Assembly: GCA_038087875.1 (NCBI GenBank)
Contig: CM075989.1
Span: 19,098,001-19,162,000 of the forward strand
Direction of reading: 5' to 3'
Length of the DNA stretch: 64,000 nucleotides
DNA from: Malacoraja senta
Taxonomy: Eukaryota
Position numbers and translations under genes: made by a program. Below the pieces are notes generated by a model, which saw nothing but the letters and a program-made list of their open reading frames with translations, was not told the origin of the DNA and ran no database searches. Below are positions 11,361 through 62,443 of this stretch, piece after piece; within the stretch, counting starts at the first letter, position 1, and each line of letters opens with the position of its first letter.

Positions 11361-11904
11361 TGTAAGGCAGTACCTCTACCGCTGCATCACCGTGCCACCC
11401 TGGGTGTGTAAGCCTGACTCATACTGGGCTGTTCGCAGTTGAACTTCAAGAGTGTCGTGTCAATGTGACGTTCCTCGCTGTGGTAAGTGTATTTTCAGTT
11501 CAGGACCTGTGCAATAAACTGCACCACGCTATTTATTTTATAGGCATCATATCCTTCGGTAACAGCCTTCGGCAAACAATGCTTGTTTTACAAACAGTTT
11601 CACTATTTCCAAGGATAACTAGGGAGGATCAATAAATCCGGGCTGGCCTTTGATGTCAGCATTCTCAGCATGAGTTTACATTAAGAATTAATATGAATAA
11701 TGATTTTTCTAATTTCTTTTTTTTTTGTTTTTTTTGTTTTTGTTTTTTTGTTTATTTTATTAGAAGTTAATACAATACAAAATAATACAGTGGCACCTAA
11801 TTTTAGGTGCCAACTATGTCATAACATAATGCATTCTATGTACAACCTCTAGTTTTATGTTTTTGAAAAGGAGGTAAAAAATAAAAAAAATAAAGATTTT
11901 TCTA

Positions 11905-12250
11905 ATTTCAAGTAACACTTGCATTTCCTCTCTCTCCACTCCCCTTCCCACCTGAGTCATCCTGCTAGTTTCACTGTTCGTATCCATTCGTCATCACCTC
12001 TTCCACAGCCAACAATGGACCATTGTGGACTCCACCTTTCCTTGGTCATCGGTGCCGGCTCCTATTTGTTCTGTACCTTTCTTTACCTCTAGTTTCCTTC
12101 CCCCCTGACTCTCAGTCTGAAAGAAGGGCCTCGACCCGAAACGTCACCCATTCCTTCTCTCCAGAGATGCTGCCTGTCCCGCTGAGTTACTCCAGCATTT
12201 TGTGTCTACCTTCGGTGTAAACCAGCGTCTGCAGTTCCTCCCTACACATG
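11905..12250 (+). mobile_element. Penelope-like 3' UTR / pseudo-LTR fragment
   Basis: Homologous to 30530-30855. Hammerhead-like core with one additional A at 12117-12145. Confidence 0.75.
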
Positions 12251-12987: not shown

Positions 12988-13280
12988 GTAGACAAAAATG
13001 CTGAAGAAACTCAGCGGGTGCAGCAGCATCTATGGAGCGAAGGAAATAGGCAACGTTTCGGGCCGAAACCCTTCTTCAGACTGATAGGGGGTGGGGAGAA
13101 GAAAGGAAAAAAGGAAAAAGACGGAGGAGGAGCCCGAGGGCTGGGGGAGGGGAGGAGACAACCAGAGGGCCGATGAAGGGGAGGGGACAGCAAGGGCTAG
13201 CAGAATTGGGAGAATTCAATGTTCAAGCCCCCAGGATGTAGACTGCCCAAGCGGAATATGAGGTGCATTTCCTCCAATCT
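12988..13280 (-). mobile_element. Penelope-like 3' fragment inserted into a CR1 LINE
   Basis: 14-bp TSD gggtaaacatacag at 12974-12987 and 13281-13294. GIY-YIG tail LEEMHLIFRLGSLHPGGLNIEF and a hammerhead core at 13052-13079. Confidence 0.85.
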
Positions 13281-13878: not shown

Positions 13879-14550
13879 GTCAAGTCAAGTTTATTCGTCA
13901 CATACACATACGAGACGTGCAGTGAAATGAAAAGTGGCGATGCTCGCGAATTGTGCAAAAAAAACTACAAGACAGAATGGAACAGAATCACATATTCACA
14001 TATTACATATTTGTGGGAGGGAAAAAAAGAAAAAACAGCAATTTTAAAAAGACACCACACAGTAGATTGGTACAGTAACGTTAGTCCCTGGTGAGATAGA
14101 GTTTAATGGCCTGTGGGAAGAAACTCCTTCTCATCCTCTCCGTTTTCACACCATGGCAACGGAGGCGTTTGCCTGACCGTAGCAGCTGGAACAGTCTGTT
14201 ACTGGGGTGGAAGGGGTCTCCCCATGATATTGTTGGCCCTGTTACTGGGGTGGAAGGGGTCTCCCCATGATATTGTTGGCCCTGTTACTGGGGTGGAAGG
14301 GGTCCCCCATGATATTGTTGGCCCTGTTACTGGGGTGGAAGGGGTCCCCCATGATATTGTTCGCCCTGTTACTGGGGTGGAAGGGGTCCCCCATGATATT
14401 GTTCGCCCTGTTACTGGGGTGGAAGGGGTCCCCCATGATATTGTTAGCCCTGGAGCTGCACCTTCTGATGTATAGTTCCTGCAGGGGGGCAAGTGTAGTT
14501 CCCATAGTGCGTTCGGTCGAACGCACTAATCTCTGCAGAGCCTTCTTGGG
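13879..14550 (-). mobile_element. Rex1/Babar-type LINE 3' fragment with an internal tandem amplification
   Basis: KKALQRLVRSTERTMGTTLAPLQELYIRRC..RANNIMGDPFHPSN, with an aataaa(cttga)n tail. Confidence 0.75.
14196..14449. repeat. Six-copy 42-43-bp minisatellite
   Basis: Units start at 14196, 14239, 14282, 14324, 14366 and 14408, with no spacers between them. Confidence 0.95.
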
Positions 14551-15965: not shown

Positions 15966-17299
15966 TGGGGGGGGGGGGGGGGGGGGTTGTTGGGCAACCC
16001 ATTTGGCCCATATCCCTCTAAACCATTTCTATCCATATCTCTGTCCAAATATCTTTTAATGTCATAATTGTATCCACTTAGATGACTTCCTCTGCCAGCT
16101 CATTCTAGATATGAACTACCCTCCGAGTGAAAAAGTTGCCCCTGAGGTCCCTCTTAAATCTCTCCCATCTCACCTTAAGTCTATGCCCTCTAGTTTTAGA
16201 ATCAATGACCTTAGGGAAGAAGACTGTGAACAGTCACTTCATCCATGCCCCTCATGATGTTGTACTTGTCAGTAAGGTCACCCCTCAGCCTCCAAGGGAA
16301 AAATTCCCAGCCAAGGGTGGCACTGTGGCACAGTGGTAGAGTTGCTGCCTTACAGTGCCAGAGACCGGTCCGATCCTGACTACGGGTGCTATCTGTACGC
16401 CGTTCGTATGTTCTCTCCATGGCCAGCGTAGGTTTTCTCCGAAATCCTTGGTTTTATCCCACAAGCCAAAGACATACAATAGACAAAAGACAATAGGTGC
16501 AGGAGTAGGCCATTTGGCCCTTCGAGCCAGCACCGCCATTCAATGTGATCATGGCTGATCATCCCCAATCAGTACCCCGTTCCTGCCTTCTCCCCATATC
16601 CCCTGACTCCGCTATTTTTAAGAGCCCTATCTAGCTCTCTCTTGAAAGCATCCAGGTCTGTGGAATTCATGGCCACAGAAGGCTGTGAAGGCCAACTCAA
16701 TGGATAATTTGAAGGCAGAGATGGGTAGATTCTTGATTAGTACGTGTGTCAGTGTTCATGGGAAAAGGCAGGAGAATGGGGTTGAGAGGGAAAGATACAG
16801 TAGATCACCCATAATTGAATAGCAGAACAGACTTGAATGGCCTAATTCTGCTCCGATCATCTATGAACTTAGTGATGACTTTGGGAAAATTCTTCTCATT
16901 GTCGACACTGTCATTTACTGGTAGACATGCTCAGTGAGATGAACACTGACGAGGGATCTCACATGAGGTAAATTCTTCCCCTTTGATACCAGCACTATCA
17001 TTGCATGGTAACCACAAAGTAAGGAGATAGTTCCCTTTGAAGGAAAAGATATAATTTTATTTTAAAAAGGTAATAAAGTTATGGCCAGCAGTTGAAGATT
17101 AAACACATTTGGCAGTTCATCAATTTAACAATAAACTCTTTGAAGGTGAAAAAGACAGTTCATTCTTGCACTTGGAAAATGTCCAATTTAATCTATTTTT
17201 TTAATTTCCACTGTAATCGATCGCAATAGAAAGCCTTTCTAAATAGAAGGAAGGAAACCAATTCATTGCAAGGCAACGTTAATGCCCAGTAGTTCACTA

Positions 17300-17575
17300 T
17301 AGTTTAGTTTAGTTTAGAGATACAGTGCAGAAACAGGCCCTTCGGCCCACCGAGTCCGTGCCGACCAGTGATCCTACACACACTCGGGACAATTTATAAT
17401 TTTACCGAAGCCAATTCACCTACAAACCTGTACGTCTTTGGAGTGTGGTAGAACTCACGAGCCCTCGCAGGTCACGGGGAGAACGTACAAATTCCGTATG
17501 GACAGCAACCGTAGTCAGGATGGAACCCGGGTCTCTCGCGCTGTGAGGCAGCAACTCTACCGCGGCGCCACCGTG
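17300..17575 (-). mobile_element. HE1-like V-SINE
   Basis: (TTTAG)n tail, V-domain and tRNA-like head. Confidence 0.85.
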
Positions 17576-18115
17576 TTAGTTCTCTACCCCAGATGGGATG
17601 GAAGGCCAAATTAGATGGTTTAGGTTCAGGTTTAGGTTTATTATTGTCACAGAGACTGTTCCCAGAGGATTTGATAAATGGAACATGGTTGAAATCATGA
17701 ACAAAACACCAAGTGCTGAAGCAAAGTAAGAATTTCATTGTCCTATCAGGGACACATGACAATAAACTCACTTGAACTTGAAGTGTTGGAAGAACTCAAT
17801 GGGTCAGGCAGCATCTCCAGAGGGGTTATATTGATAATGATATGGATCGGAATGCTCTTCAGACTGATTGGAGAGAACTGGGAATCGCAGAGGGAGAGCA
17901 GTGAGAGATGGTCTCACAGAATTCTCGTTGTGGAGAGGAGGAGAAGTTCTTCAAAGTGGTGATACATTGAGGGAATTTTGCAGTGGAGCAGTAAAATGGA
18001 GACACAATAGACCGCAGATGCTGGAATCTTGAGAGAAACACAAAATACTGGAGGGACTCAACGGGTCAGGCAACATCTGTGGAGGGAATGGACAGACACC
18101 ATTTCTTCGGACTTG

Positions 18116-18325
18116 CGTAGGAAGGAACTGCAGGTGCTGGTTTAAACCGAAGATAGACACAAAAAGCTGGAGTTACTCAGCGGGACAGGCAGCATCTCCG
18201 GAGAGAAAGAATAGGTGACGTGTCGGGTCTGAAGAAGGGTCTCGACCCGAAACATCACCCATTCCTTCTCTCCAGAGATGCTGCCTGTCCCGCTGAGTTA
18301 CTCCAGCTTTTTTGTGTATTTCTTC
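18116..18325. mobile_element. Fold-back Penelope-derived element with a hammerhead-like core (18225-18260)
   Basis: Inverted arms flank gggt-CTGAAGAAGGGTCTCGACCCGAAACATC-accc, where gggt/accc can form stem I. Confidence 0.75.
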
Positions 18326-20624: not shown

Positions 20625-20937
20625 GATTTAGTTTCGTTTCGATACACAGCGCGGGAACAGGCCCTTCGGCCCACCGAGTCCGCTTCCAACCAGCGATCCC
20701 CGCACACTGACACTTTCCCACACACACACGCGGGACAATTTACATTTATACCAAGGCAAATAAATAACCTGCAGATCCATACGTCTTTGGAGTGTGGGAG
20801 GAAACCGAAGATCACTGAGAAAACCCACGCAGGTCACGGGAGGAAAGTACAAACTCCGTACAGACAGCACCCATGGTCAGGATGGAACCTGGGTCTCTGG
20901 TGCTGTGAGGCAGCAACTCTACCGCTGCGCCACCGTC
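20625..20937 (-). mobile_element. HE1-like V-SINE, near full length
   Basis: Head, V-domain and tail are all present. Confidence 0.88.
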
Positions 20938-22171
20938 CCTCTCTTTTGCATCCCTTATGCCAACTCAGTCGAGGCATAATTTCCGGATCACTGAAGGCGT
21001 GAAGCATGTTGGTGTCCGATGCAAATATTTTTAATCAAAGGAACAGCCTGAGGTATTTTTTCTGTAATTAATGATCCAATGAGGGTGGTGTGGGAACATG
21101 CAGCACTGACACAGAGTTTCACAAGGAGCTATCAATTTACACTGTGATACTCTCCCACATTCTCTTCACAAGAGCCTGGAATTCTAGCCACTGAGTTTTA
21201 TTTTCCAGTCACAGTGGTGGGTGGTTTTGGTGTCATGTTGCCACGACTATATTTATCTCTTGGAAATTAAACTTGTGGAGACAGTGATACTGTTGTAGGC
21301 GCAATTAAAACTACTGCTAGAGTGTTAGATCTAAAGCAGGCCCAACCGGGAGGCTGCAGAGCCCAGGGTAATGAACAAAACCCGGAGCAGGGTAAGGACG
21401 TGGAGGAATGGGAGCAATGGTAGGGTTCATAATCTGAAGAAGGATTTCGACCAGAAACGTCACCCATTCCTTCGATCCAGAGACGCTGCCTGACCCCAGC
21501 ATCTTGTGTCTATGTTTGGTGTAAACCAGCATCTTCCTTCCTACACATGTGACTATCATGTTGATTTACTAGGAACAGAATTAGGCCATTCGGCCCATCA
21601 AGTCTACTCTGCCATTCAATCATGGCTGATCTATCTTTCGCTCTCAACCCCATTCTCCTGCCTTCTTCCCAGAATCCCTGACACCCGTTGTAATCAAGAA
21701 CCTTAAAAATATCCATTGACTTGGTCTCCACAGCTTTCTGTGGCAATGAATTCCACAGACTCACCACCCTCTGACTAAAGAAATTCCTCCTCATCTCCTT
21801 TCTAAAAATACTGTACATCCTTTTATTCTGAGGCTCTGGTCCTACTCTCCCAGTTCAGATGTATAAAATCACATTGGGGACATCGTCTGTTTAATGCTCA
21901 GAAATGATATGGAAAGTCATTGCAAGTTGGTTATGGTAGCAGAATATACTAAGCTGTGTGGAATTAACTCTCACAGACTCCAACAACTCTTATCAACTTC
22001 TGAAGATGCACTGTGTTGAATGGATAATGTACATCACAGCTTGGTTTGGGAACAGTTCATCATCCCTGTTCCTAATCCCTGACACCCTTACTAACCAGTA
22101 AAGATCCGCACAATGTTTTTTATCTCTCTACACATTGTCTACATCTCTCGTTTCCCTTATCCCTAACAAGT

Positions 22172-22199
22172 CTGAAGAAGGGTCTCGACCCGAAACGTC
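22172..22199 (+). ncRNA. Minimal type I hammerhead ribozyme core in a Penelope-like pseudo-LTR (about 22120-22303)
   Basis: CTGAAGA-A-GGGT(CTCG)ACCC-GAAA-CGTC: conserved CUGANGA and GAAA boxes, a stem II tetraloop, a palindromic ACGU stem III and a GUC cleavage triplet. Confidence 0.7.
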
Positions 22200-22559
22200 A
22201 CCCATTCCTTCTCTCCAGAGTTGCTGCCTGTCCCGCTGAGTTACTCCAGCTTTTTGTGTCTATCTTCGGTTTAAACCAGCATCTGCAGTTCCTTCCTGCA
22301 CATTCTTACTGCTGGAACCTGACATATATTGGTTGCCAGCCAAGCTCTGATGATCAGCAAAAAGTTGCGATGCCAAATAAACAATAGAATGAGCTATCAT
22401 TGTCCTATCGGTTACCTACTCAGGTGAGCACACCTTGAATACCGCATGACGTGATGGGCCCTGAAGCAAGTTGTGTGGCAAGGTTGTAAAGGATCTCACG
22501 CTAGGATCAGAGGACTGCTGTCAAAATAGAAAACGGGAAAACTCAGATTCATTTTCCTT

Positions 22560-23190: not shown

Positions 23191-23339
23191 CTTGATCTTG
23201 CGGAATGTCAGGTTTTTATTCTTCATCAGATGTGTATTGGTTGCAAGCTGTTTTCTCTGGTGTTTATGGATTCCAACAATGCATTTTTAAGTGTTGAAGT
23301 CCATACAAATCGTAGTCTCATAACACGCATATGATTAAG

Positions 23340-23640
23340 GGCGCAGCGGATAGAGCTACTGCCTGACAGCGCCAGTGACCCGGGTTCGATCCTGACTACG
23401 GGTGCTGTCTGCACGGAGTTTGCATGTTCTCCCCGTGACCTGCGTGGGTTTTCTCCGGGTGCTCCGGTTTCCTCCCACACTCCAAAGACGTACAGGTTTG
23501 TAGGTTAATTGGCTCGGTGTAAATGTAAATTGTCGCTAGTGTGTGCAGGATAGTGTTAGTGTGTGGGTATCGCTGGTCGGTGCCGACTTTGGTTCAGACC
23601 GAAGGGCCTGTCTCTACGCTCTGTCTCTAAACTAAATAAA
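23340..23640 (+). mobile_element. HE1-like V-SINE, near full length
   Basis: gcgcagcggatagag (A box), ggttcgatcc (B box), V-domain and tail. Confidence 0.88.
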
Positions 23641-24988
23641 CAACAATATAAATACAATGAGTTAAGGCTGAGAAACAAGATTGTGATGAACCAGGTTTAA
23701 TCATTGCAGTGTTGCAGGTATAACAAAAGTGTTTGTTCATTTTGTACTGCAATTTTAGAGTTAATAATAATGGGTTCTGAGCTATTGTGAGCCTGTATGT
23801 TTGATAACATTTCCACAACTGCACACAATGGGGTCTCTGTGCTTTGCTGACCAAACTCCATTTACCTTGTCTGAATCTGACATCAGAACTGCTTTGATTC
23901 AGTGAAACAAGAACACAAAGAAATATTATTCATGTTCCAAAGAGAAACCTTGATAAATTGTTGTTTCATCAGACTTCGGACCATGTTTGTGAAGTACGGG
24001 AGAGGTGAGCTTTTCATTTTAGAGAGAAGGCCATTGTGGATGACATAGGTGCGGGTTCTTTGAAGTCCAGTCAGCTGTTTTCAATAACATTGTGTTTGTT
24101 GAAAACGGAAAGATGCTATCTGGAAAAAAATACACTGGAAAGAACGAGTTCCTTAATTTTCAAACTAAGAGTGTATAGAGTCATACAGTGTGGAAACAGG
24201 CCATTGCCCCTGCTGACCACCTATACGAGTCTCACCTGTCTGTGTTTGGCCCATATCGCACTAAACCTATCCCTGTCTGGCAACTTATTCCATATAACTA
24301 CCACCCTTTGTGTAAAAAAAATGCCCCTCAGAACCCGATTAAATAATTCCCTCCTTATATGGCAACCAGAGACCTAAATCTTCTGGTTCTTGATTCCCTA
24401 TTCTGGGTAAAAGACTGTGCATTTACCTGAGTGAATTTCTTGATTAGTACAGGCGTCAGAAGTTATGGGGAGGAGGTAGGAGAATGGGGTTCGAAGGGAG
24501 AGATAGATCAGCCATGATTGAATGGCGGGGTAGACTAGATGGGCCGAATGGTCTAAATCTACTCCTCTCACTTATGAACATATGACCCTATATGAAAAAC
24601 TTAAATAAAGATCTTTATCATATCCTGTTGGTTAATTTTTTTTGATGGGGAACAAGTGTAAAAACAGTGTCTTAATGATTGGATTTTACAGTAATTTTAA
24701 TCAGCTGTGATTCACCTTGGCAAAACATTATAAACACATGTTAGAATGCTTTGAAGTTCTAATGGGAGCTAGTGCTGATACGTAAGATTGCCCAATTGAT
24801 TTTTGACCCTGAAATTCTTTTAAAAATCGCAGTAAATCATCCTTTGCTGTGAAGGTAATAATCATTGTGCAGAGAATGAAGCTTTGTTATTCCAGGAATC
24901 TAACTTCCCTGATCACTGGTGGGTGTTAGAGCTTGCACGTGCTATATTCAAACAACCTGGTACTGTGTTGAAGATTGGAGATGTGCAG

Positions 24989-29512: not shown

Positions 29513-30855
29513 GATGAAATGTGTAGGAGGGAACTGCAGATGCTGGTTTACACTGAAGACAGACACAAAGCGCAGACTGGACGATTGTTTCGCTGAACAC
29601 TTTTGCTCAGTCCGCCTGGAGCTGATGCGGAAAGGGTCAACAGCGTGAAGTTCCTAGGACTCCACCTGTCAGATGACCTGACGTCCACGACCAACACCAC
29701 AGCACTGGTCAAGAGAGCCCAGCAGCGACTACACCCTCTCCGAAGACTACGTAAAGCAGGTCTCCCCACTACACACCTACGAACTTTTTATAGGGGGACA
29801 ATCGAGAGCACATTAACCTACGGCATCACTTCCTGGTTCGGGAGCTGCAAGGCGTACGAACGGCACCAACTAGACAGGATTGTGAAGACCGCCAGCAGGA
29901 TTATTGGTGCTCCACTCCCTTTCCTGCTGGACATATACAGGAAGAGATGTATCAGCAGAGCCATCTCCATCATCAAAGACCCCTACCACCCATCGCATCA
30001 CATATTCTCCATCCTGCCATCTGGGAAGAGGTACAGGAGCATTAGGTGCAAAACCGGCAGGATGCTCCTCAGCTTCTTCCCGCAGGTTATAAGACTGATA
30101 AACGGACTTTGTCCCCTGCCAAAGTATCGTGCACCAACCACCAACCTGGACACACTGCAGCAGAGCCACTGTCGTGCCGCTGCCGATCGGAACGCCTGTT
30201 GATGTTTAGTAGAGTGTTCATTTGTTCATGATATATGTATTTTTACTTCTATTTATTTTTTACTGCACACTGAAATGGACACTGGTTGAGGAACGTTTTT
30301 TTGTTTCCTCTGGGTATGCGAATACTCAGGAAATGACAATAAAGATATACAATACAATATACAATACCTACTTGATCTCCCGGTTGCCAAGCACTTTAAC
30401 TCGCCCTCCCATTCCCACACTGACCTTTCTGTCCTGGGCCTCCTCCACTGTCAGAGTGAGGCCCAGCGCAAATTGGTGGTACAGCACCTCAGCTTACACC
30501 CCAGCGGTATGAATATCAGTTTCTCTGACTACAAGTAACCCTTGCTTTCCCTCCCTCAATCCCTCCCCCACCCCAGTTCTCTGACTAGTTTCACTGTCCT
30601 CCTGATAAATTCTACTGTTGTGTGACTAGTTTTTCCCCTCAGCCAACAATGAACCATTATACATTTTCTTGACCATCGTGTGCTTTGATCTGTCCTTTTC
30701 ACACCTTACATGCTCTTTGTACCCTTCCATATCTTCAGTTTCCCTCTCCCCTGACCCTCAGTCTGGAGAAGGGTCTCGACCCGAAACGTTACCCATCCCT
30801 TCTCTCCAGAGATACTGCCTGTCCCGCTGAGTTACTCCAGCATTTTGTGTCTATG
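29513..30855 (+). mobile_element. Penelope-like element with inverted 5' segment, split by a nested LINE
   Basis: 12-bp TSD taagctgtttca at 29501-29512 and 30856-30867. The GIY-YIG frame TKRRLDDCFAEHFCSVR (about 29565-29616) resumes as LDLPVAKHFNS (about 30371). A mutated hammerhead core lies at about 30763-30790. Confidence 0.8.
29617..30367 (+). mobile_element. Rex1/Babar-type LINE, 5'-truncated, open ORF2 C-terminus
   Basis: ERVNSVKFLGLHLSDDL...KRAQQRLHPLRRLRK...FYRGTIESTLTYGITSWFG is a DUF1891-like post-RT region. It ends in aatgacaataaa followed by a (TACAA)n tail. Confidence 0.85.
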
Positions 30856-31707: not shown

Positions 31708-32012
31708 AGTTTAGTTTAGAGATACAGTGCAGAAACAAGTCCTTCGGCCCATTGAGTCCGCACCGACCAGCGATCCCCGCACACTAACACTATCCTACAC
31801 ACATGAGGGACAATTTACATTTATAGGAACTCAATTAACCTACAAACCTGTTTGTCTTTGGAGTGTGGGAGGAAACCGAAGATCTCGGAGAAAACCCACG
31901 CGGTCACGGGGAGAACATACAAACTCCGAGCAGACAGCACCCATAATCGGGATGGAACCCGGGTCTCTGGTGCTGCAAGGCAGCAACTCTACCGCTACGC
32001 CACCAAGCCGCC
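31708..32012 (-). mobile_element. HE1-like V-SINE, full length
   Basis: Same family motifs. Confidence 0.88.
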
Positions 32013-32477
32013 CAGAAACAAAAACCTTTCTAAAGTTGTTCATAATAAACTGATCTAATGGCAGGGGGAAGGGAGTGCCTGAGTAAAACCCACCTTGAGA
32101 TTTTCTTATTATCATTACAATTCTTGTGATCCCCGCCCCTCACACCATGTTAACTCCTGTAATTATACAAATCGCTGTTATTAATCAGAAATGCTGAATT
32201 TCAAAGTAACATTATTGTGTGGCTGAATTTCCAAAGTGCCTGGGGGACTTACACCTGAGTGCTTGGAGTTCTGTTGTTTCTAGTTTAGAATGGGATAAAA
32301 CTAAGGGGTTTGCATGGTCATGTTTTAAGATGTAAACAGATAAAAGTGCTTTCATCTCTTCCTTGCCTGTTGTCTATTAGCACAACCAGTTTAAAAAAAG
32401 GTCTTAATGCCTTCAATACAGCACTCCCATCAAGTACATGATAACAGGTTTGTTTCACCCATCAACATTCTGTTTGA

Positions 32478-32667
32478 AGGTACACAAAAATGCTGGAGAA
32501 ACTCAGCGGGTGCAGCAGCATCTATGGAGCGAAGGAAAGGGTCTGAAGAAGGGTTTCGGCCCGAAACGTTGCCTATTTCCTTCGCTCCATAGATGCTGCT
32601 GCACCCGCTGAGTTTCTCCAGCATTTTTGTGCACCTTCGATTTTCCAGCATCTGCAGTTCCTTCTTT
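32478..32667 (+). mobile_element. Fold-back Penelope-derived mini-element with a hammerhead core in the loop
   Basis: 14-bp TSD aacattctgtttga at 32464-32477 and 32668-32681. About 60-bp inverted arms, with the core at 32543-32570. Confidence 0.85.
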
Positions 32668-32879
32668 AACATTCTGTTTGATCCCAGCTGCGTTGTTGCA
32701 TCAATTAAAAAGACATTTAAAATGGCCTCAATTACTTTAATTATTCGGAAAACTAAAATTCAGGATATTTCTAATATCCAAAAAACAAATCAGTAAAAAA
32801 CATATCTCAACTCATCATAATTAAAATGGTAGACATTCTGGCCATTAGGACCCACTAGGCCCAAAGAAACAGATTTACA

Positions 32880-33000
32880 GTCTGAAGAAGGGTCTCGACC
32901 CGAAACGTCACCTGTTCCTTCTCTCCAGAGAAGCTGCCTGTCCCCTTCTCTCCAGAGAAGCTGCCTGCCTGAGTTACTCCAGCATTTTGTGTCTATCTCC
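32880..33000 (+). mobile_element. Penelope-derived mini-element beginning at the hammerhead core
   Basis: 14-bp TSD gaaacagatttaca at 32866-32879 and 33001-33014. Intact core at 32882-32909. Confidence 0.85.
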
Positions 33001-34553
33001 GAAACAGATTTACATACTGGATGGAAACTATTAACATCTTTATCTAGTAAAGTTTGTACCTGAGATAGGTTTACACTGATCTCTTTGGATTGTTTTCTCT
33101 GGAACGCCAGAGTTTGAGGGGAGACCTGATAGAGATAGATCAAATTATGACAGGCATAGATAGGAAGACAAGCAGAATTTTTTTCCCCGGTATGGAAATA
33201 TCAAAGCCTGAAGGACATAGCTTTAAAGTGGGGGGGTAAACTTTGAAGGAGATGTGCGGGTCAAGATTCAATATAGTTTATTGTCATGTGTCCCAGATAG
33301 GACAATGACCTTCTTACTTTGCTTCAGCACAGAATATAGTTGGCATGAATACAGAACAGATCAGTGTGTCCATGCTGCTGGACATTGGGGGGTAGGGTAT
33401 GGTGGAGACGTCCCTCAAAATAAGGGAAGGGATTTCACGCCAGTGGGCCACATGAGTGGCAAGGGTGGGAGGTAAAATTGTGATTTGGGTAAACAGTATT
33501 GAATGTATGTATAACCTCCGAGAATGTTGGATGAATTTTTTGCACGGTTCCTGTATTGTATGTATTTATTTACTTGAATAAAGTCTATTTGAAATTTATA
33601 AAAAGGATTGGTGGTAGAGGCAGATACGAAAAGTGGCATTTAAAAGGAGTTTTTGATAGGCACATGGATATGCAGGGACTAGAGGGATATAGATCACATG
33701 CAGGCAGGAGTTTAATTTATTCTGGCATCGTGTTCGGCATGGACGTTGTGGGCTGAAGGGCCTGTTCCTGTGCTGTACTGTTCTAAGTTCTAAACGTTAC
33801 AGAGTTGTGATCAGGTCTGGCAGGGTAGACGTGGGATTGATGTGTTTCCTGGGTACAGTGTCTGGAACTGGGAGTGACAGAGTCAACGTAACAGATTAGT
33901 CATTCAGAGATGAGGGGATATGGAGTTGGTGCAGGGATGATGCTGAAGATGGTGATGAAGAACATCCTTCATCTTCATGAATGGCAGAGCAAGCAGACAG
34001 GGCCCAATGTCCTATTCATACTCAACAGAGAAGAGAATTTCATTGTCGTATGTCAAGAGTCAAGAGAGTTTATTGTCATATTTCCCTGACAGGACAATGA
34101 AATTCTTGCTTTGCTTCAGCACAACAGAACATAGTAGGCATTGACTACAAAACAGATCAGTGTGTCCATATACCATTACAATGTCAATAGATAAATGAAT
34201 ATATGCTGAACTTTTTATATATATATACACACATATACAGTATATATATATATGTGTGCGTGTGTATGTGTACATATATACATCTATATATATATGTATA
34301 TTAATAAACAAACAATAATAGTGCAAAGACACAAAATAATGCCCCCGTCTATGTAGTTTGGAGCTTATTTGGAGGTTGCAATGTTTAATAGCTTTTGTTT
34401 GTAGGGAAGAAGCTGCTCCTGAACCTGGACGTTAGTTTCCCGATGCTAGGGCTTGGTGATGGGGCCCGTCAACTCAAGAAGCTGCAGGAGAAGCCCAAGG
34501 GACAAGGATGGATGCCAGGCCGGGCAGTGAAAACCCTGCCTTGTCCCCGCATC

Positions 34554-34608
34554 TGTGTGTGTGTGTCTGTGTGTGTGTCTGCGTCTGTGTGTGTGTGTGT
34601 GTGTGTGA

Positions 34609-34647
<39 letters not shown>

Positions 34648-34930
34648 TGTGTGTGTGTGTGTGAGTGTCTGTGTGTGTGAGTGTCTGTGTGTGTGTGTGT
34701 CTGTGTGTGTGTGTGTGTCTGTGTGTGTGTGTGTCTGTGTGTGTGTGTCTGTGTGTGTGTGTCTGTGTGTGTGTGTGTGTGTCTGTGTGTGTGTCTGTGT
34801 GTGTGTGTGTGTGTGTCTGTGTGTGTCTGTGTCTGTGTGTGCGTGTGTGTGTGTGTGTGTCTGTGTGTGTCTGTGTGTGTGTGAGTGTGTGTCTGTGTGT
34901 GTGTGTGTGTCTGTGTGTGTGTGTGTGTGT

Positions 34931-34962
<32 letters not shown>

Positions 34963-34982
34963 CTGTGTGTGTGTGTGTGTGT

Positions 34983-35014
<32 letters not shown>

Positions 35015-35240
35015 CTGTGTGTGTGTCTGTGTGTGTGTGTGTGTCTGTGTGCGTGTGTGTGTGTGCGTGTGTGTATGTGTGCGTGTGTGTGTGTGTGTGA
35101 GTGTGTGTGTATGTGTGTGTGCGTGTGTGTATGTGTGCGTGTGTGCGCGTGTGTGTGTATGTGTGCGTGAGTGTGTGTGTGTGAGTGTGTGTGTGTGTGT
35201 GTGTATGTGTGCGTGTGTGTGTGGGTGTTTGTGTGTGTGT

Positions 35241-35271
<31 letters not shown>

Positions 35272-35367
35272 CGTGCGTGTGTGTGTGTGTGTGTATGTGT
35301 GTCTGTGTCTGTGTGTGTGTGTGTGTCTGTGTGTGTGTGTGTCTGTGTGTGTGTGTGTGTGTGTGTG

Positions 35368-35406
<39 letters not shown>

Positions 35407-35539
35407 TGTGTGTGTGTCTGTGTGTGTCTGTGTGTGTGTGTGTCTGTGTGTGTGTGTGTCTGTGTGTCTGTGTGTGTGTGTCTGTGTTGTGTCTGTGTGT
35501 GTTGTGTGTGTGTGTCTGTGTGTGTGTCTGTGTGTGTGT

Positions 35540-35578
<39 letters not shown>

Positions 35579-35589
35579 TGTGTGTGTGT

Positions 35590-35648
<59 letters not shown>

Positions 35649-35777
35649 TGTGTGTGTGTGTCTGTGTGTGTGTGTGTGTGTGTCTGTGTGTGTGTCTGTG
35701 TCTGTGTGTGTGTGTCTGTGTGTGTGTGTGTTGTGTGTGTGTGTCTGTGTCTGTGTGTGTGTGCTGTGTCTGTGTGT

Positions 35778-35811
<34 letters not shown>

Positions 35812-35830
35812 CTGGTCTGTGTGTGTGTGT

Positions 35831-35871
<41 letters not shown>

Positions 35872-35909
35872 TGTGTGTGTCTGTCTGTGTGTGTGTGTGT
35901 GTGTCTGTG

Positions 35910-35946
<37 letters not shown>

Positions 35947-35947
35947 T

Positions 35948-35981
<34 letters not shown>

Positions 35982-36024
35982 CTGTGTGTGTCTGTGTGTG
36001 TGTCTGTGTGTGTGTGTGTGGTGT

Positions 36025-36061
<37 letters not shown>

Positions 36062-36181
36062 TGTGTGTGTGTCTGTGTGTGTGTTGTGTGTGTGTGTGTG
36101 TGTGTCTGTGTGTGTGTGTGTGTGTCTGTCTGTGTGTGTGTGTGTCTGTGTGTGTGTGTGTCTGTCTGTGTGTGTGTGTGT
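34554..36181. repeat. About 1.6-kb imperfect (TG)n microsatellite with TCTG interruptions, running into an assembly gap
   Basis: Direct reading of the sequence. It explains the CVCV and THTH pseudo-ORFs. Confidence 0.98.
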
Positions 36182-38229: not shown

Positions 38230-39170
38230 TGCCTTCAACACATCAGAGTATTGAGTACAAGAGTCAGGCAGACATGATGCTGCTTGATAGGATTTTGCTT
38301 AGGCTGCATTTGGAGTATCGGGGGCAGTTCTGTTCATCTCATTACAGGAGGAATGTGGAGTGGGTGCAGAAGGGATTTAGCAGAATGCTGTTTGGATTAA
38401 GTCTCAGTCTGAAGGGTCTCAACCCAAAAAGTCAGCTATTTCCTTGTCTCCAGAAATGCTGCATGACCTGCCGATTTATTCCAGCATTTCATGTTTATCT
38501 TCGGTGCAAACCAGCATCTGCAGTTCCTTCCTACACATGCTGTTTGGATTAGAGACCATTAGCTATTAGAAGAGGTTGGACAAACTTGGATTGCTTTCTC
38601 TGGAGATTCAGAACCTGATATGTGTATACAATTATGAGATGTATAGATGCCGTAGATCATCAGGACTTTATCACAGGGTGGAAATGTCAAAGGCTAGAGC
38701 TTTACGGTGAGAGGCAAAATGTTTAAGGGACAAAAATATATATATTTTTATGTATATGTAAAATATATATATAAAACATACAGAGAGTGGTGGGTGCCTG
38801 CAACACACTGCCAGGGGTGGTGGTGGAGGAAGCAAATACAATAGTGACATTTAAGAGGATTTCAGATAAGCAAATCTTCTTATCGAGTCCTCACACAAGA
38901 TTAGAAGTTGTTCAACCAGAGCTGAACACACTTCTCTGCATCTGCATACAATGGTGTCTGTCTTGTCGCTTCTTGTGCGTGGTGGTGGAAAGATTGGTGG
39001 AAACAGGGCCGCGGCGTGAACGCTCTTTCCTTGACCCCAGATAAGCAAATAAGCAAATGCAGGGAATGGAGGTACATAGTTCATGTTGAGGCAAAGGAGA
39101 TTAGTTTAACTTGGCATCATATTTGGCATGGGCACTGTGGGGACATTCTTGTCCCATCATGTTCTATGCT
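38230..39170 (+). mobile_element. Decayed CR1 LINE 3' part with nested inserts
   Basis: IEYKS....L...L.RLHLEY..QF.S.HYR..VE.VQK.F.RM motif. Confidence 0.75.
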
Positions 39171-47182: not shown

Positions 47183-47620
47183 AGGTAGACAAAAATGCTG
47201 GAGAAACTCAGCGGGTGAGGCAGCATCTATGGAGCGAAGGAAATAGGCGATGTTTCGGGTCGAGACCCTTCTTCAGACTGGTAAGGGTGGGGCGGGAAGA
47301 AGAAAGGAAGAGGCGGAGACAGAGGGCTAGGGAGAGCTGGGAAGGGTAGGAGAAAGCAGGGACAACCTGAAATTGGAGAAGTCAATGTTCATACCGCTGG
47401 GGTGTAAACTGTCCAAGCAAAATATGAGGTGCTGTTCCTCCAATTTACAGTGGGCCTCACTCTGGCCATGGAGGAGGCCCAGGACAGAAAGGTCGGATTC
47501 GGAATGGGAGGGGGAGTTGAAGTCCTGAGCCACCGGGAGATCAGGTTGGTTATTGTGAACTGAGCGGAGGTATTGGGCGAAGCGATCGCCAAGCCTACGC
47601 TTGGTCTCACCAATGTAGAG
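47183..47620 (-). mobile_element. Penelope-like element 3' fragment: GIY-YIG endonuclease C-terminus plus pseudo-LTR with hammerhead core
   Basis: Translation YIGETKRRLGDRFAQYLRSV...LPVAQDFNSPSHS...LEEQHLIFCLDSLHPSGMN matches the PLE GIY-YIG domain. It is followed by CTGAAGAAGGGTCTCGACCCGAAACATC at 47249-47276. Confidence 0.88.
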
Positions 47621-48110
47621 CATCTGTGTTGTGGTGAGAACTATAGGCAGCACTCATATTGGGATAGTAGTTATTACAGGTGAGGCAAGGCCTCCCTGCT
47701 CTTAGCTAATGTACATAATCACTGGATTCCAAGGTTTCACAAGACTTCCTTGCTGCAAACTTAGGAAAGCAGATTAAAGTTCAAAAGAACAAGACTGACA
47801 AAAATGTTGTTTTACACTGTCTGGCTGGTTTCTATCAGACAAGAGTGACTCACTGTAAATAGTCATAGGATCTCATAACCATCTTAAAACCCAAGCAAGA
47901 TTGTTAATTTCTCATAGAAATACTGATCACGTCAATGAAGTGGGAAAGCACCCAAGGAAAACATGCAAACTCCACACAGTTAACTCCAGAGATTTGGACC
48001 GACTCTGGAGTTGCCAGTGGTGTAAGAACAGCAGTTTTGTTGGCCTTATCTCTGCTGAGAATTTTTACTGTTTTTTTACTGTGAAATGTACACTCAAGCA
48101 GCAGAAATTA

Positions 48111-48735
48111 TCCATATAACTAAAAGTCTCATCTTGACCACTTCCTGTCTGCGCTGTATATTGATTTTAGAAAAAAACGTTACCGTATATTACAGATTTT
48201 TGGCCATCTTACACAGTCCTCCTCCGCTGAGGCAGCCCCGAGGATTTTTCCGATCGATGAAAAATAAAAGTTACGAGTGTTTAAAAAATCTTGAGATCAG
48301 CTGATTGGTCCTCTCGCCTGTCAATCGCCATTATGATGCCTGGACTCGAGTCAGTCGCTCTAGAAGATCATGAGGGAGAGGCTTGTGAATCAACTGAACT
48401 GTGAGTCTGCAATGTACTTGCAATAAATGATTTGTTTGCCCTTAATGAAAATGCAATGAGTTGTTTGGCCTGCCCTGTGCTTGAAACTGCAATGGAAATG
48501 GAAATGAAATGAAAATGCAATGAGCTGTTTGGCCTGGCCTGTGCTTGAAACTGCAATGGAAATGAAATGAAAATGCAATGAGCTGTTTGGCCTACCCTGC
48601 CGCTTGAAACTACAATGGAAATGAAATGAAAATGCAATGAGCTGTTTGGCCTGCCCTGTGCTTGAAACTGCAATGGAAATGAAATGAGTTGTTTGGCCTG
48701 CCCTGTGCTTGAAACTGCAATGGAAATGGAAACTA
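48111..48735 (+). mobile_element. Putative non-autonomous Helitron-like element (5' part) with internal tandem repeats
   Basis: Begins A|TCcatataactaaaag, resembling Helitron 5' ends, and contains five tandem units. No 3' hairpin or CTAG end was found. Confidence 0.35.
48444..48733. repeat. About five-copy 58-64-bp tandem repeat with variable (GAAAT)n spacing
   Basis: atgcaatgag recurs at 48451, 48515, 48573 and 48632, plus a shortened fifth unit. Confidence 0.92.
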
Positions 48736-51329
48736 AAGTTTGCCTGACCATTTTTTCTGTGAAGTTCTGCCAGTTTCAAGATGTCTCAAAAGTGGTCCTT
48801 TTAACTGTGGAATACCATGAAAAAAAATTGATATAAAGTTAGGCCTTGTAGAGACATGACAATGCTTTGGAAAGTACAACTTTGCTTGATCATCTTGGTA
48901 TACCAGTATACCATGCATAATTGCACACCGATCAACTATCTGTGGAATTAAGACCAAATTAAGACTTTGATTTAGCAATTAACCTTTTGAAGATATGTAT
49001 GCTAATTTGTTAATGTAATGTGCGAAGATTACTTGTACATTCCAGGAAATAGAAAAGTCTTTGAAGATACAAATTTGACCATTTTAACTACACTGAAAGT
49101 TTCCCATTAACATGGGAAAATATTGATTAATTGATTATTCTAAACTCAATAGTTACATTTGAACCCGTAATGCTGAACTTTTAAATATTCTGCCGGATAC
49201 GGCACCATTCTTCACATTATCCCGAAAACCAGTTTGTTAATGGAAATAGAAATAGGAATGGCTTTTATGAATAACATGGCATTAATGGTGGTATTCTCTG
49301 CAGAATTTTTAAAAAAGTCCAATGTTACAGGCTCAAGGGAGCCAAAATGTAAATAGTATAAAATTATCAATTCCTCAATATACACCATGCAGCAACTGTT
49401 TAATCATAGAATCATAATGTTTTCTGGAAGCGCTAATGAAAAATTCATTCAAATTAAATGAACAAGGAGAAAATATAACAGCTAATTTGAACACAAGGTA
49501 CCATTATGGCAAAGAACAGAGTGTAGATTAGTTATGTTGACGTAGAAAAATTATTCAGTAGGACATCCTGGAGAGCACCTTCCTGAATATTTTATGTCAA
49601 AAGGACAACATTGGCACCAAAAACAACACAACATTTCCTAAATGTAACATTAGGAAATTCGAGATAGTACTTCATTATTTTTTTTCCAGAAGGGTTACAA
49701 CAATAACTGCAGGAAAGCAAGCCAGCTGGGGGTGCCAAATGTTTTCCAAAAGCAGATTAACATTCAAGAACAAGGCAACAGCATGCACTGACATCTATAA
49801 TCCAGTGGGCAATCACCGAGGAAAGAAGTTCCAAATATAATCAAGACTGTCGCAAACAAGAGCAACCTTGTTACGATTATTTGTTAGCCTCAAGAATTTT
49901 ATGCTTTAAATCTTTTCTCTTCTTCCCCAATCTCTTCTATTCCCTAATTTCAGTTCTGAAGAAAGCGAGCCAACATTTTAAATCTTCAGATAAATGCAAG
50001 AGATTGCAGATGCTGGAATTGGGATGGAAAGAAGTGGTCAACATTTCAAGTCGAGAGCCTGCACAGATTGAAGGGTGCAATGCGATCATTCCTTCCCATC
50101 CAGAGTTGCTACTCAACCTGCTGAGTTCCTCTAGCAGATTGGTTCATAAGTGATAGCAGCAGAATTAGACCATTCGACCCATCAAGTTTACTCCACAATT
50201 CAATCATGGCTGATCTATCTTTCCCTCTTAACCCCATTCTCCTGCTTCTCCCCATAACCCGTGACACCCATACTAATCAAGAATCTATATCTGCCTTAAA
50301 AATATCCATTGACGGGCTCCACAGCCGTCTGTGGCAAAGAATTCTACAGATTCACCACCCTCTGACTAAAGAAATTCCTCCTCATCTCCTTCCTAAAGGA
50401 ACTTCTTTTTATTCTGAGGCTATGATCTCTAGTCTTATATTCTTCCACTCTCCACATCCACTCTTATCCAGTCCCTTCACTATTCGGTAATTTTCAATGA
50501 GGCCCCCCTCATCTTTCTAAACTCCAGTGCCGTCAAACGGTTGTTGCTGTAATTCCCTAAACTCCTCAACCACCGAAGGTAATGGGAACTCCACTACTGA
50601 TCAATCTCCCCACTTGGCTCTCTCCTTTGTACAAAGGAGAGATAGCAGGTACTGGTTCCCAGTACCTTTTCCAGTTGAGTTTTAAGTGAAATTAAGTGCA
50701 CCCCGTGAAATCTCCTCAAAGCAAAAGCAAGCCACAACAAACATTTTAAAATAAATTAGTCACAACTGTAGATTTACTGACTACAATTCATAACTAAGGT
50801 TGACATTAGACATAATAAAACAAGTAGAAAAATACAAAGTATTAAAGATTAAAGTAAAACAGTCGTACTATAATACACAGGAAACTGCTGATCTTGGGCA
50901 TCTTCAATTAATCGTACAGAAATAATTGTTGATCCTTTCAACATCCCATTTCAAAGAATTGAAAATAACATGCTTCACCCATTTAAATAGCAAGAGCATA
51001 GAGTATATATTATGATTTATGTACTACAAGGGTAAACAGTAACGGCTGCCAAAAGTTAAACAGACTGCAAAATGCCCATTTTAAATCATGGCTTGTTTCT
51101 AAATGCTTATTGTTATATTTATAATGTGACATTAATACAAATTGTACAAAAACTAACATGTCATTCAATCGCCTTTTCTTGCTTTAGTTTAAATAATGAA
51201 CGAGCAATGCCAATAACTGACTTGGTACATGTGGGAGCCTTCTCTGCCACATTTGTATACGAGGCACCTTCATAGCTTGAAATCTACAGTAGAACGTTTA
51301 ATATTTATGTTGGTTGGAAACATAAATGC

Positions 51330-53334: not shown

Positions 53335-53442
53335 GTAGGAAGGAACTGCAGATGCTGGTTTATACTGAAGATAGACACAAAACGCTGGAGTAACTCAGCG
53401 GCTCAGGAAGCATGTCTGGAGAAAAGGAATCGGTGTCTATCT
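53335..53442 (-). mobile_element. Penelope-derived mini-element in the BCL2L10 intron
   Basis: 10-bp TSD tcaatcataa at 53325-53334 and 53443-53452. Confidence 0.8.
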
Positions 53443-55486: not shown

Positions 55487-55720
55487 AAGTGTTTAAGAAG
55501 GAACTGCAGATGCTGGAAAATCGAAGGTAGACAAAAGTGCTGGAGAAACTCAGCGGGTGCAGCAGCATCTATGGAGCGAAGGAAATAGGCAACGTTTCGG
55601 GTGCAGCAGCATCTATGGAGCGAAGGAAATAGGCAACGTTTCGGCCCGAAACGTTGCCTATTTCCTTCGCTCCATAGATGCTGCTGCACCCGCTGTGTTT
55701 CTCCAGCACTTTTGTCTACC
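55487..55720 (-). mobile_element. Fold-back Penelope-derived mini-element in the BCL2L10 intron
   Basis: 14-bp TSD agggggaggaggca at 55473-55486 and 55721-55734. Inverted arms plus an internal tandem duplication. Confidence 0.85.
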
Positions 55721-55872
55721 AGGGGGAGGAGGCAGCCTGGTTAGAAGGGGGTTGAGAAACATGGAACTGCTGAGGCTGGTTAACAAAGGAAGACACAAAG
55801 CGCTGGAGTCACTCAGCGGGTCAGGCAGCATCTCTGCAGAGGGGGGGCCCCAGCTCCCTCTATCTCTCTCAC

Positions 55873-56308
55873 CCAGCCTCCGTTCTGCTCCATCCAGTCG
55901 CGCCGCTCCTTGCCCAGGTAGTTGGCCACACTCTCGGCCAGCATGTCCAGCGGGCCGGGCCCGGCCTCGGGCCACATGGCGACGCCCGAGTCGCGGAGAT
56001 GGCGGCCCAGCACGCCGGCGAAGGCGAAGATGCTCACCACCCGGCCCCAGTTCATCTTCTCGTCGGCCGACATCTCCTCCACCACCCGCCGCAGGAAGTC
56101 CGCCGCCGCCTGGGCCTGGGCCTCTGCCGCCTCCTGCTTGTCAGGCCCGGCTCCAGCTCCGGCTCCAGCTCCGGGCCCGCTCCTCGGCCTGGCGTAGACC
56201 TGCAGGCCGTTGTCCAGCCGGCTCTTCATGCTGCTGAAGGCGGCCTGGTGCTGCTCCACCATCTGGTCGGCCACCTTGCGCAGGGTGCAGGCCGTCTTGT
56301 CGGGCGGC

Positions 56309-56347
<39 letters not shown>

Positions 56348-56451
56348 CCCGACGAGCCCGAGCCCGAGCCTGCTGGGCCCGGGCCCAGGCAATGCTGCAG
56401 GTAGTCCTGGGCCAGTGCCAGCGCCTGTTCCCTCAGCGTGGCCTCCGGCAT
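55873..56451 (-). CDS. BCL2L10: BCL2L10/Nr-13-like anti-apoptotic Bcl-2 family protein, coding exon 1 (193 codons; BH4, BH3, BH1 and most of BH2)
   Basis: ATG at 56451 in GCGGCAATGC context. Translation MPEATLREQALALAQDYLQHCLG (BH4-like), LRKVADQM (BH3), KMNWGRVVSIFAFAG (BH1; NWGR at 56041-56052), YLGKERRDWMEQNGGW (BH2). This is followed directly by a GTGAGA donor at 55872, the conserved Bcl-2-family intron position after GGW. The motifs resemble chicken Nr-13 and zebrafish Nrz as recalled. Confidence 0.93.
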
Positions 56452-57200: not shown

Positions 57201-57282
57201 TCATCCCCTCCATCGTAACCCACCCAGACACCATCATCCCGTCCACCTGCACCTCCTCAGACCCCATCTCTATCAGACACCA

Positions 57283-62272: not shown

Positions 62273-62443
62273 AAGGTAGACAAAAATGCTGGAGAAACTC
62301 AGCGGGTGAGGCAGCATCTATGGTGCGAAGGAATAGGTATTAATAGGAATACCTATTCCTTCGCTCCATAGATGCTGCCTCACCCGCTGAGTTTCTCCAG
62401 CATTTTTGTCCACCTTTGATTTTTCCAGTTTTTTCTTAAACAA
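62273..62443 (+). mobile_element. Fold-back Penelope-derived mini-element lacking the hammerhead core
   Basis: 15-bp TSD cagcctgttaagtta at 62258-62272 and 62444-62458. About 69-bp arms around a 6-nt loop. Confidence 0.85.

What the first reader, a model, noticed from the sequence alone, without database searches (positions are those of the whole stretch)
32478..33014. Short Penelope-derived elements carrying minimal hammerhead ribozymes
Seen in sequence: the motif CTGAAGA-A-GGGT-YTCG-RCCC-GAAA-CGTY is intact at 22172-22199, 32543-32570, 32882-32909 (+) and 13052-13079 (-). It is mutated at about 9699, 12117, 18229, 21434 and 30763 (+) and about 37913, 47249, 58285 and 61856 (-). Two subfamilies differ in ways that keep the pairing: stem II loop CUCG closed by U-A versus UUCG closed by U-G, and triplet GUC versus GUU with ACGU retained. 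Established knowledge: Penelope-like pseudo-LTRs carry minimal type I hammerheads whose palindromic stem III favours dimeric cleavage, and an extra A after A9 is tolerated in some natural hammerheads. Inference: copies of only 120-240 bp have their own 10-15-bp TSDs, so they inserted as short units. They may be a retrozyme-like non-autonomous family that is very dense in this genome (more than 12 cores in 64 kb).
Basis: partly seen in the sequence, partly recalled or inferred. Interest (0 to 1): 0.8.

Follow-up and report, generated by a model that had tools for sequence, protein, structure and literature searches.

The report
Penelope retrotransposon stubs with minimal hammerheads
These short repeats are broken-off end pieces of a known protein-coding jumping gene (a Penelope-like retrotransposon) in what is likely a skate genome, carrying an already described hammerhead-like motif; they are probably not a separate ribozyme parasite, though many start at one spot that likely marks where the element's RNA begins.

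Summary
The motif is real: 4 exact copies, none in 100 shuffles. A profile finds 50 arms, about 36 insertions. Both focal copies have exact 14-bp target-site duplications. The retrozyme reading fails. Four listed loci run on into the C-terminus of a Penelope-like GIY-YIG ORF, and the focal hairpin is 87/88 identical to one of them. No hammerhead arrays occur in the window, and 5' ends do not pile up at the cut site. The core, inverted arm, one-sided tail and TSD are all published PLE features. Stem II shows no compensatory change, and copies decay at CpG sites in the core. One feature is non-random: 8 of 19 arms reaching the core begin 1-4 nt before C3 (about 1 expected). I infer internally primed cDNA running off at the mRNA start. 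Cleavage is untested; relative's poly(A) reads show no end pile-up. The scan has found this before on other shark and skate DNA (8 notes). Verdict: new member of a known kind; interest 0.27.

The parts
32464..32477 (.). Left 14-bp target-site duplication of the hairpin insertion
   Evidence: exact match to 32668-32681
32478..32538 (-). Inverted arm, ending at the short 3' end (no tail)
32541..32667 (+). Sense arm of the hairpin: starts 2 nt before C3 and carries the ~35-nt tail (about 32637-32667)
32543..32570 (+). Minimal hammerhead core, UUCG loop, GUU triplet; predicted cut after 32570
   Evidence: layout per PMC4209133
32668..32681 (.). Right 14-bp target-site duplication; first 4 letters overlap the tail end
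32866..32879 (.). Left 14-bp target-site duplication of the second copy; last 2 letters overlap the element start
32880..33000 (+). Second, independent stub: starts 2 nt before C3, short 3' end, internal 27-bp duplication at 32923-32982
32882..32909 (+). Minimal hammerhead core, CUCG loop, GUC triplet
33001..33014 (.). Right 14-bp target-site duplication of the second copy
47183..47623 (-). Longest copy: 85 codons of the GIY-YIG endonuclease C-terminus (47369-47623), pyrimidine-rich spacer, core 47249-47276, short 3' end
12988..13280 (-). ORF-linked copy (last 27 codons) with exact 14-bp TSD; 87/88 identical to the focal hairpin arm
30365..30853 (+). ORF-linked subfamily-1 copy (GIY-YIG C-terminus to short 3' end)
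11682..12249 (+). ORF-linked subfamily-1 copy with tail and a 12-bp TSD (1 mismatch), split by a nested 193-bp insertion
22141..22302 (+). Intact-core copy with upstream pyrimidine tract and tail
55487..55720 (.). Hairpin insertion, 14-bp TSD, tail on the left arm only, junction in stem II
62273..62443 (.). Hairpin insertion, 15-bp TSD, both arms start at the predicted cut site (+28) with a 12-nt spacer
18113..18319 (.). Hairpin insertion, tail on the left arm only, sense arm starts 2 nt before C3
9615..9780 (.). Hairpin insertion, tail on the left arm only, sense arm starts 1 nt before C3

Best explanation
These are short, TSD-flanked end pieces of a protein-coding, endonuclease-positive Penelope-like retrotransposon (likely Neptune clade), and the hammerhead motif likely rides along as part of its pseudo-LTR rather than driving a family of its own. 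Shown: the same sequence follows the GIY-YIG ORF end in four copies; the copies have two 3' ends (about +90-95 and +131 from C3); about a third are head-to-head hairpins with the tail on one arm; 5' ends spike 1-4 nt before C3. Inferred: the element's own protein nicks the target about 14 bp apart and starts cDNA at one of two internal sites downstream of the core, as shown in vitro for an Anolis PLE. When it starts in the repeat copy at the 5' end of the mRNA, it runs out of template after 95-135 nt at the transcription start (an initiator-like TCAGTC, consensus recalled), giving stubs of fixed start. When both nicked strands prime, one at each site, the two cDNAs join head to head. The master ribozyme is probably functional only as a dimer or with protein help; inserted copies decay neutrally.
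For: ORF link: window 47369-47623(-) is 41% identical over 82 aa to the C-terminus of a 902-aa RT plus GIY-YIG protein and 77% to skate proteins; tblastn finds the same C-terminus at 30341-30532 and 13200-13280 and the last codons at 11690-11915. Same source: focal arm 87/88 to ORF-linked 13052 copy; 18229 and 22172 copies 84/87 to ORF-linked 12117 copy. 4 of about 36 insertions reach the ORF; RNA read depth is about 6,000 at the core against at most about 950 in the ORF. Two 3' ends: window alignment and read loose ends at 12201-12213 plus a lower-depth tail. Tail on exactly one arm in 11 of 12 hairpins, 1 unclear (hand count; P about 4e-4). 5' spike: 8 of 19 arms against 1.05 expected, P 4e-6; 5 of 16 without hairpins, P 1e-3; loose ends pile at 47278-47280 in RNA and DNA runs. 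Decay: CpG sites in the core are hit in 18 of 108 cells, flank CpG in 9 of 78. Literature: PMC4209133, PMC11167929, PMC8557442, PMC3846280.
Against: No full-length element is in the window and no genome was held, so the 5' repeat running into the ORF, which the run-off step needs, was not seen. The transcription start is inferred from a recalled motif only. The spike window was chosen after seeing the data, coincides with the edge of conserved sequence, and only 1 of the 8 arms (32880) is anchored directly by a TSD; 3 are hairpin junctions with microhomology. Read pile-ups at 47278-47280 are confounded by subfamily differences upstream. 0 of 4 informative copies show an extra cap-derived G. 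Non-CpG core positions vary less than flanks (9/235 against 133/1576, P 0.013); I read this as conservation among master copies, but it does not exclude selection on short templates. Arkhipova 2013 explains head-to-head repeats by self-priming on an antisense template instead.
Confidence: 0.72

Rival explanations
1. A separate non-autonomous, retrozyme-like family: short units are themselves transcribed, self-cleave as dimers, circularise and are re-inserted by the PLE protein.
For: Very high density; fixed 5' start; core conserved between subfamilies 1 and 2 (0 differences at 15 core and core-adjacent positions); head-to-tail joints exist: about 50 contigs in the four best such rows for run X1 and 3-8 contigs per row and run. 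Retrozymes derive from PLE pLTRs (bioRxiv 10.64898/2026.07.22.740005).
Against: Those joints are tens among 289,550 records laid (counts incomplete) and 1 RNA read; no array in the window; units start at -1 to -4, not at the cut site (+28), where 2-3 of about 30 is chance level (P 0.2-0.5); near-identity to ORF-linked copies; hairpin junctions differ per copy; non-hairpin copies are predicted to hold the hammerhead layout in under 0.2% of the ensemble.
Confidence: 0.1
2. Ordinary 5' truncation with a pause: cDNA starts at the 3' repeat of a full-length RNA and the enzyme falls off or switches template at the folded hammerhead or the pyrimidine tract just upstream. Same identity as the best explanation, different cause for the spike.
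For: 15 of 34 sense arms end inside +2 to +41 and junctions carry microhomology; the drop-off rate is high throughout the core; needs no promoter assumption.
Against: The spike is 4 nt wide, about 8 times the local rate, and lies upstream of stem II rather than at its 3' foot where a reverse transcriptase would first meet the helix (inference).
Confidence: 0.3
3. The pyrimidine tract plus AG just before the core is a splice acceptor, as for the Drosophila virilis Penelope intron that ends at helix I; splicing would supply a longer stem I and could set the 5' boundary.
For: 10 of 19 arms keep a 63-93% pyrimidine tract ending in AG or GG before the U preceding C3; genomic stem I is only 2 bp; precedent in PMC4209133.
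Against: No spliced joint into this site in the RNA run beyond 1 read and none listed; loose ends upstream have low agreement (0.31-0.45), not a common exon. A donor outside the laid stretches would be missed as a joint.
Confidence: 0.1

Closest known systems
Minimal type I hammerheads in metazoan PLE pseudo-LTRs (Cervera and De la Pena 2014, PMC4209133; parts 1-2 of 4 read, supplements not seen)
   Same: CUGANGA, extra nucleotide between 9 and 10.1, G10.1-C11.1, no stem III, palindromic 15.2-16.2; mostly single dispersed motifs attributed to truncated PLEs; thousands per vertebrate genome; inverted pairs nearby.
   Different: Stem II is 4 bp and stem I only 2 bp, shorter than the schistosome type (7-8 and 4-5 bp) and like D. 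virilis in stem I. Cartilaginous fishes are not named in the text I read.
Complex insertions of endonuclease-positive PLEs (Craig et al. 2021, PMC8557442; Arkhipova et al. 2013, PMC3846280; passages read)
   Same: Heavy 5' truncation, adjacent inverted copy, 30-40-bp tail at one end only, 8-10-bp TSDs, Inr-like site in the pLTR.
   Different: Here the hairpins lack any ORF between the arms, TSDs are mostly 14-15 bp, and 5' ends spike at one site.
PAc (Poseidon) of Anolis carolinensis (Frangieh et al. 2024, PMC11167929; parts 1-2 of 4 read)
   Same: Two adjacent internal reverse-transcription starts about 120 nt past the hammerhead define the tail; both strands are cut and extended; ribozyme needs protein and is dispensable for insertion in vitro.
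   Different: Different clade (homologues here carry a CxxC linker, 118 of 135 proteins); no biochemistry here; the paper does not describe run-off stubs in the parts read.
Animal non-LTR retrozymes (Cervera and De la Pena 2020, PMC7229834, passages; Li et al. 2026 bioRxiv 10.64898/2026.07.22.740005, parts 1-3 of 5, supplements closed)
   Same: Non-coding, short, type I hammerhead, related to PLE pLTRs; reported in one chondrichthyan.
   Different: Retrozymes are tandem repeats with a hammerhead in each unit and give circular RNA; these are dispersed single or head-to-head insertions with a minimal core.

Membership tests
PLE minimal hammerhead (min-HHR) | Catalytic boxes CUGANGA, GAAA, UH | tested here: met
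   6 of 18 full-core arms intact; 4 exact
PLE minimal hammerhead (min-HHR) | Extra nucleotide between 9 and 10.1; G10.1-C11.1; palindromic 15.2-16.2 | tested here: met
   Alignment A1; G-C in 12 of 15
PLE minimal hammerhead (min-HHR) | Helix I closing the motif | tested here: inconclusive
   Only 2 bp, 90% of cells paired, one-sided changes only, no covariation above shuffles
PLE minimal hammerhead (min-HHR) | Self-cleavage as dimer or with protein | not testable with these tools
   No assay; poly(A) reads of a relative show no begin/end pile-up (table 6), which such a library is unlikely to show
Endonuclease-positive PLE | C-terminal GIY-YIG domain upstream of the pLTR | tested here: met
   The window piece lacks the first motif half and gives no Pfam hit itself; homologue P0010 reaches the GIY-YIG cut-off
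Endonuclease-positive PLE | RT domain in the same ORF | tested here: inconclusive
   Absent from the window; present in homologous proteins
Endonuclease-positive PLE | Inverted 5'-truncated copy, one-sided 30-40-bp tail, TSD | tested here: met
   12 hairpins, 11 with one-sided tail; 8 of 30 exact TSDs
Neptune clade | Zn-finger-like linker between RT and endonuclease; RT phylogeny | tested here: inconclusive
   CxxC-type motif in 118 of 135 homologues (loose pattern); Nematis shares it; no tree built
Non-LTR retrozyme | Tandem units each with a hammerhead | tested here: not met
   None among 28 tandem-repeat rows; head-to-tail joints rare in contigs
Non-LTR retrozyme | Unit ends set by the cleavage site | tested here: not met
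   2-3 of about 30 arms start at +27 to +30, chance level
Non-LTR retrozyme | Canonical type I hammerhead with loop 1-loop 2 contacts | tested here: not met
   No Rfam hammerhead hit at E up to 10; 2-bp stem I
Non-LTR retrozyme | Unit-length linear and circular RNA | not testable with these tools
   Only a poly(A) library of a relative was available; 1 read on a goes-back joint

The most novel reading that the evidence does not exclude
The stubs are a genome-wide footprint of the PLE life cycle: internal priming in the 5' repeat runs off at the capped mRNA start, and two-site priming from both nicked strands builds the hairpins, so tens of thousands of junctions map the promoter and both reverse-transcription starts in vivo. 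As a by-product, inversions such as 32478-32667 give the core a 60-bp stem I, making pre-folded hammerheads inside host transcripts.
Probability: 0.45. Interest if true: 0.5.

Novelty: new member of a known kind. Interest (0 to 1): 0.27.

Why it matters
As a family it is ordinary: PLE end pieces with minimal hammerheads are described in many animals. What could matter is mechanism. The later steps of PLE insertion are unvalidated (PMC11167929), and a dense set of stubs with two fixed 3' ends, a fixed 5' start and one-tailed hairpins gives countable predictions for priming and template use. The hairpins also place long double-stranded stretches in host transcripts near a Bcl-2-family gene, but no function was tested.

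Tried and rejected
Rfam: no hammerhead family at E up to 1 in the window or E up to 10 at the locus; miRNA hits only reflect the hairpin. No whole genome was held, so no genome-wide census. Sequencing-run search: no RNA holder listed; one raw poly(A) run of a relative was laid instead, about 6% of it read. Cleavage-site ends: not enriched. Splice acceptor: no joint support. Compensatory covariation: none. Heterodimer of the two neighbouring cores in one transcript: costs about 58 kcal/mol because the hairpin must open; their 339-bp spacing is unremarkable at about one insertion per 1.8 kb, and each has its own TSD. Extra cap G: 0 of 4 informative copies. Relaxed TSD search on 17 units: only one clear extra case. 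An ATG frame at about +50 is open to the tail end in 2 of 2 subfamily-2 arms and 2 of 3 translated old arms but stops in 3 of 4 translated subfamily-1 arms, and gave no match to 135 homologues: not claimed as the ORF start. Lunse et al. 2017 (dimer cleavage) was not held; known only from a review passage (PMC6765202). Literature searches for a cartilaginous-fish description, for start-site stubs and for twin priming in PLEs listed nothing on point; subscription papers, Repbase and unseen supplements (PMC4209133 figures S2-S4, PMC11167929 figure S2, the bioRxiv tables) may hold it. Empty sites in relatives were not tested.

Full report
Observation. A fuzzy search recovers all nine decayed copies named and six more. 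A profile built from 14 window copies finds 50 arms, none in 5 shuffles or in the reversed window; they cover 7.4% of the sequence. By hand I group them into about 36 insertions, 12 of them head-to-head hairpins. Eighteen arms span the core; 6 keep every catalytic letter and ACGU, and 4 also keep all of stem II. Exact 10-15-bp TSDs flank 8 of 30 units tested, against 3 of 150 random pairs. The focal stretch is two independent insertions: a hairpin at 32478-32667 and a single stub at 32880-33000, each with an exact 14-bp TSD.

Source. The copy at 47183-47623(-) begins with 85 codons that are 77% identical to Leucoraja erinacea proteins and 41% identical to the C-terminal GIY-YIG region of a 902-aa RT-endonuclease protein. 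The same C-terminus precedes the cores at 30763 and 13052 and, past a nested insertion, at 12117. The focal hairpin arm matches the ORF-linked 13052 copy at 87 of 88 letters; the 18229 and 22172 copies match the ORF-linked 12117 copy at 84 of 87. Both young subfamilies therefore have coding members. The host is probably a skate (inference; no genome held). Neptune clade is likely from a CxxC linker in 118 of 135 homologues (loose pattern; no tree).

The ribozyme. The layout is the published PLE minimal hammerhead: extra nucleotide after A9, G10.1-C11.1, no stem III, palindromic 15.2-16.2 (PMC4209133, parts 1-2 read). Rfam has no matching model. Stem I is 2 bp. Majority letters of three subfamilies differ at 1 of 15 core and core-adjacent positions (G12, a CpG site in the oldest group) against 14 of 56 flank positions (P 0.11). 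Within subfamilies, non-CpG core cells vary less than flank cells (9/235 against 133/1576, P 0.013), but CpG core cells are hit at least as often as flank ones (18/108 against 9/78). I read this as a core kept in master elements and copies that decay afterwards. Folding predicts that non-hairpin copies hold the hammerhead layout in under 0.2% of the ensemble, whereas the focal hairpin holds it in 61% because the inverted arm supplies a long stem I. That fold is the monomer form, which cannot make stem III; pairing with the neighbouring core costs about 58 kcal/mol. No cleavage was tested. In the literature read, such motifs cleave weakly and only as dimers (PMC4209133) or with the element's protein (PMC11167929).

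Ends. There are two 3' ends, about +90-95 and +131 from C3 (loose ends at 12201-12213 and a lower-depth tail). This is the PLE tail, which in the Anolis element lies between two internal reverse-transcription starts 111-118 nt into an ORF that begins at stem II (PMC11167929). Eleven of 12 hairpins carry the tail on one arm only, one is unclear (P about 4e-4 if arms were independent); one-sided tails are already described (PMC8557442, PMC3846280; passages). The 5' ends are not uniform. Of 19 arms reaching C3, 10 keep the upstream pyrimidine tract, 1 starts at about -9 and 8 start at -1 to -4, against 1.05 expected from the drop-off rate over +41 to 0 (P 4e-6; 5 of 16 without hairpins, P 1e-3). 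The window was picked after the fact, only 32880 is TSD-anchored at that point, and the site is also the edge of conserved sequence. Reads agree with reservations: loose ends at 47278, 47279 and 47280 (681, 648 and 1,354 RNA reads; also in DNA contigs) have low agreement, but subfamily differences upstream contribute, and the reference has a private insertion that blurs the edge. Starts at the cut site are at chance level (2-3 of about 30). In the relative's poly(A) run both strands are equally represented at the core and no begin/end pile-up is listed, which fits passive host transcription.

Mechanism. Shown: sequence identity with a coding PLE, TSDs, two 3' ends, one-tailed hairpins, 5' spike. 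From literature: internal priming at two sites and cutting of both strands (PMC11167929); transcription starts in the pLTR at an initiator (PMC2377424 and PMC6765202, passages). Inferred: priming in the repeat at the mRNA 5' end runs off at the start site, whose TCAGTC resembles an initiator (consensus recalled), giving fixed-start stubs; priming from both strands, one at each site, gives the hairpins. I put the identity at about 0.9 and the run-off step at about 0.5. Rivals are a pause at the folded core (0.3), a splice acceptor (0.1) and a true retrozyme-like family (0.1). For the last, head-to-tail joints do exist, about 50 contigs in four rows among 289,550 records laid (counts incomplete), but no array is in the window and the defining features tested were not met.

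Novelty. Every structural feature is published for PLEs in other animals. My searches found no paper on this family in cartilaginous fishes or on start-site stubs, but the library is partial and supplements were not seen; Li et al. 2026 report tandem retrozymes in one chondrichthyan. I wrote down the start-site reading; the look-up then showed eight scan notes on other shark and skate DNA with the same reading. They are unchecked and are not support. One gave the twin-priming wording; another claims an extra G at the junction, which I did not see in 0 of 4 informative copies. Verdict: new member of a known kind, interest 0.27; 0.5 if the run-off and two-site priming model is confirmed.

Noticed in passing
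window 55816-56736 (-): GC-rich first exon of a Bcl-2-family gene, MCL1-like by my recall (Pfam Bcl-2 E 2e-20); family copies lie just downstream, apparently in its intron.
   Followed up: partly
window 62273-62443: Hairpin whose two arms both begin exactly at the predicted cut site, with a 12-nt spacer; the 53335-53442 hairpin starts at +28 to +30. Not above chance in total but would fit a rare cleaved template.
   Followed up: partly
window 11702-11909: A 193-bp element with a long T-rich end and a 15-bp TSD sits inside the ORF end of the 12117 copy.
   Followed up: no
window 29597-30202 (+) and 59142-59783 (+): Open remnants that look like LINE ORF C-termini (recalled resemblance); the first hits Pfam ALKBH8_N.
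   Followed up: no
window, e.g. 2648-2938, 17295-17578, 20626-20945, 23337-23641, 31708-32013: Other dispersed ~300-bp repeat families, up to 16 self-matches each.
   Followed up: no
window 38987-39049 (-): Weak CPEB3/HDV-like Rfam hit, 27.7 bits, below the 35-bit cut-off; predicted fold unconvincing.
   Followed up: partly
laid on window 12207 and 12248, run X1: Six contigs join the short 3' end to the tail end on the opposite strand, a tail-to-tail form.
   Followed up: no
window 5964-6345: Old complex insertion: inverted copy, a tail fragment and a second core copy, the classic PLE partial-tandem layout.
   Followed up: partly
laid on window 47330-47623, run X22: RNA reads over the ORF piece show about 2:1 strand bias while the core shows none; library strandedness unknown.
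   Followed up: no
window 34554-36181, 14196-14452, 48444-48746, 56869-57213: A 1.6-kb TG microsatellite beside a gap and several minisatellites.
   Followed up: no
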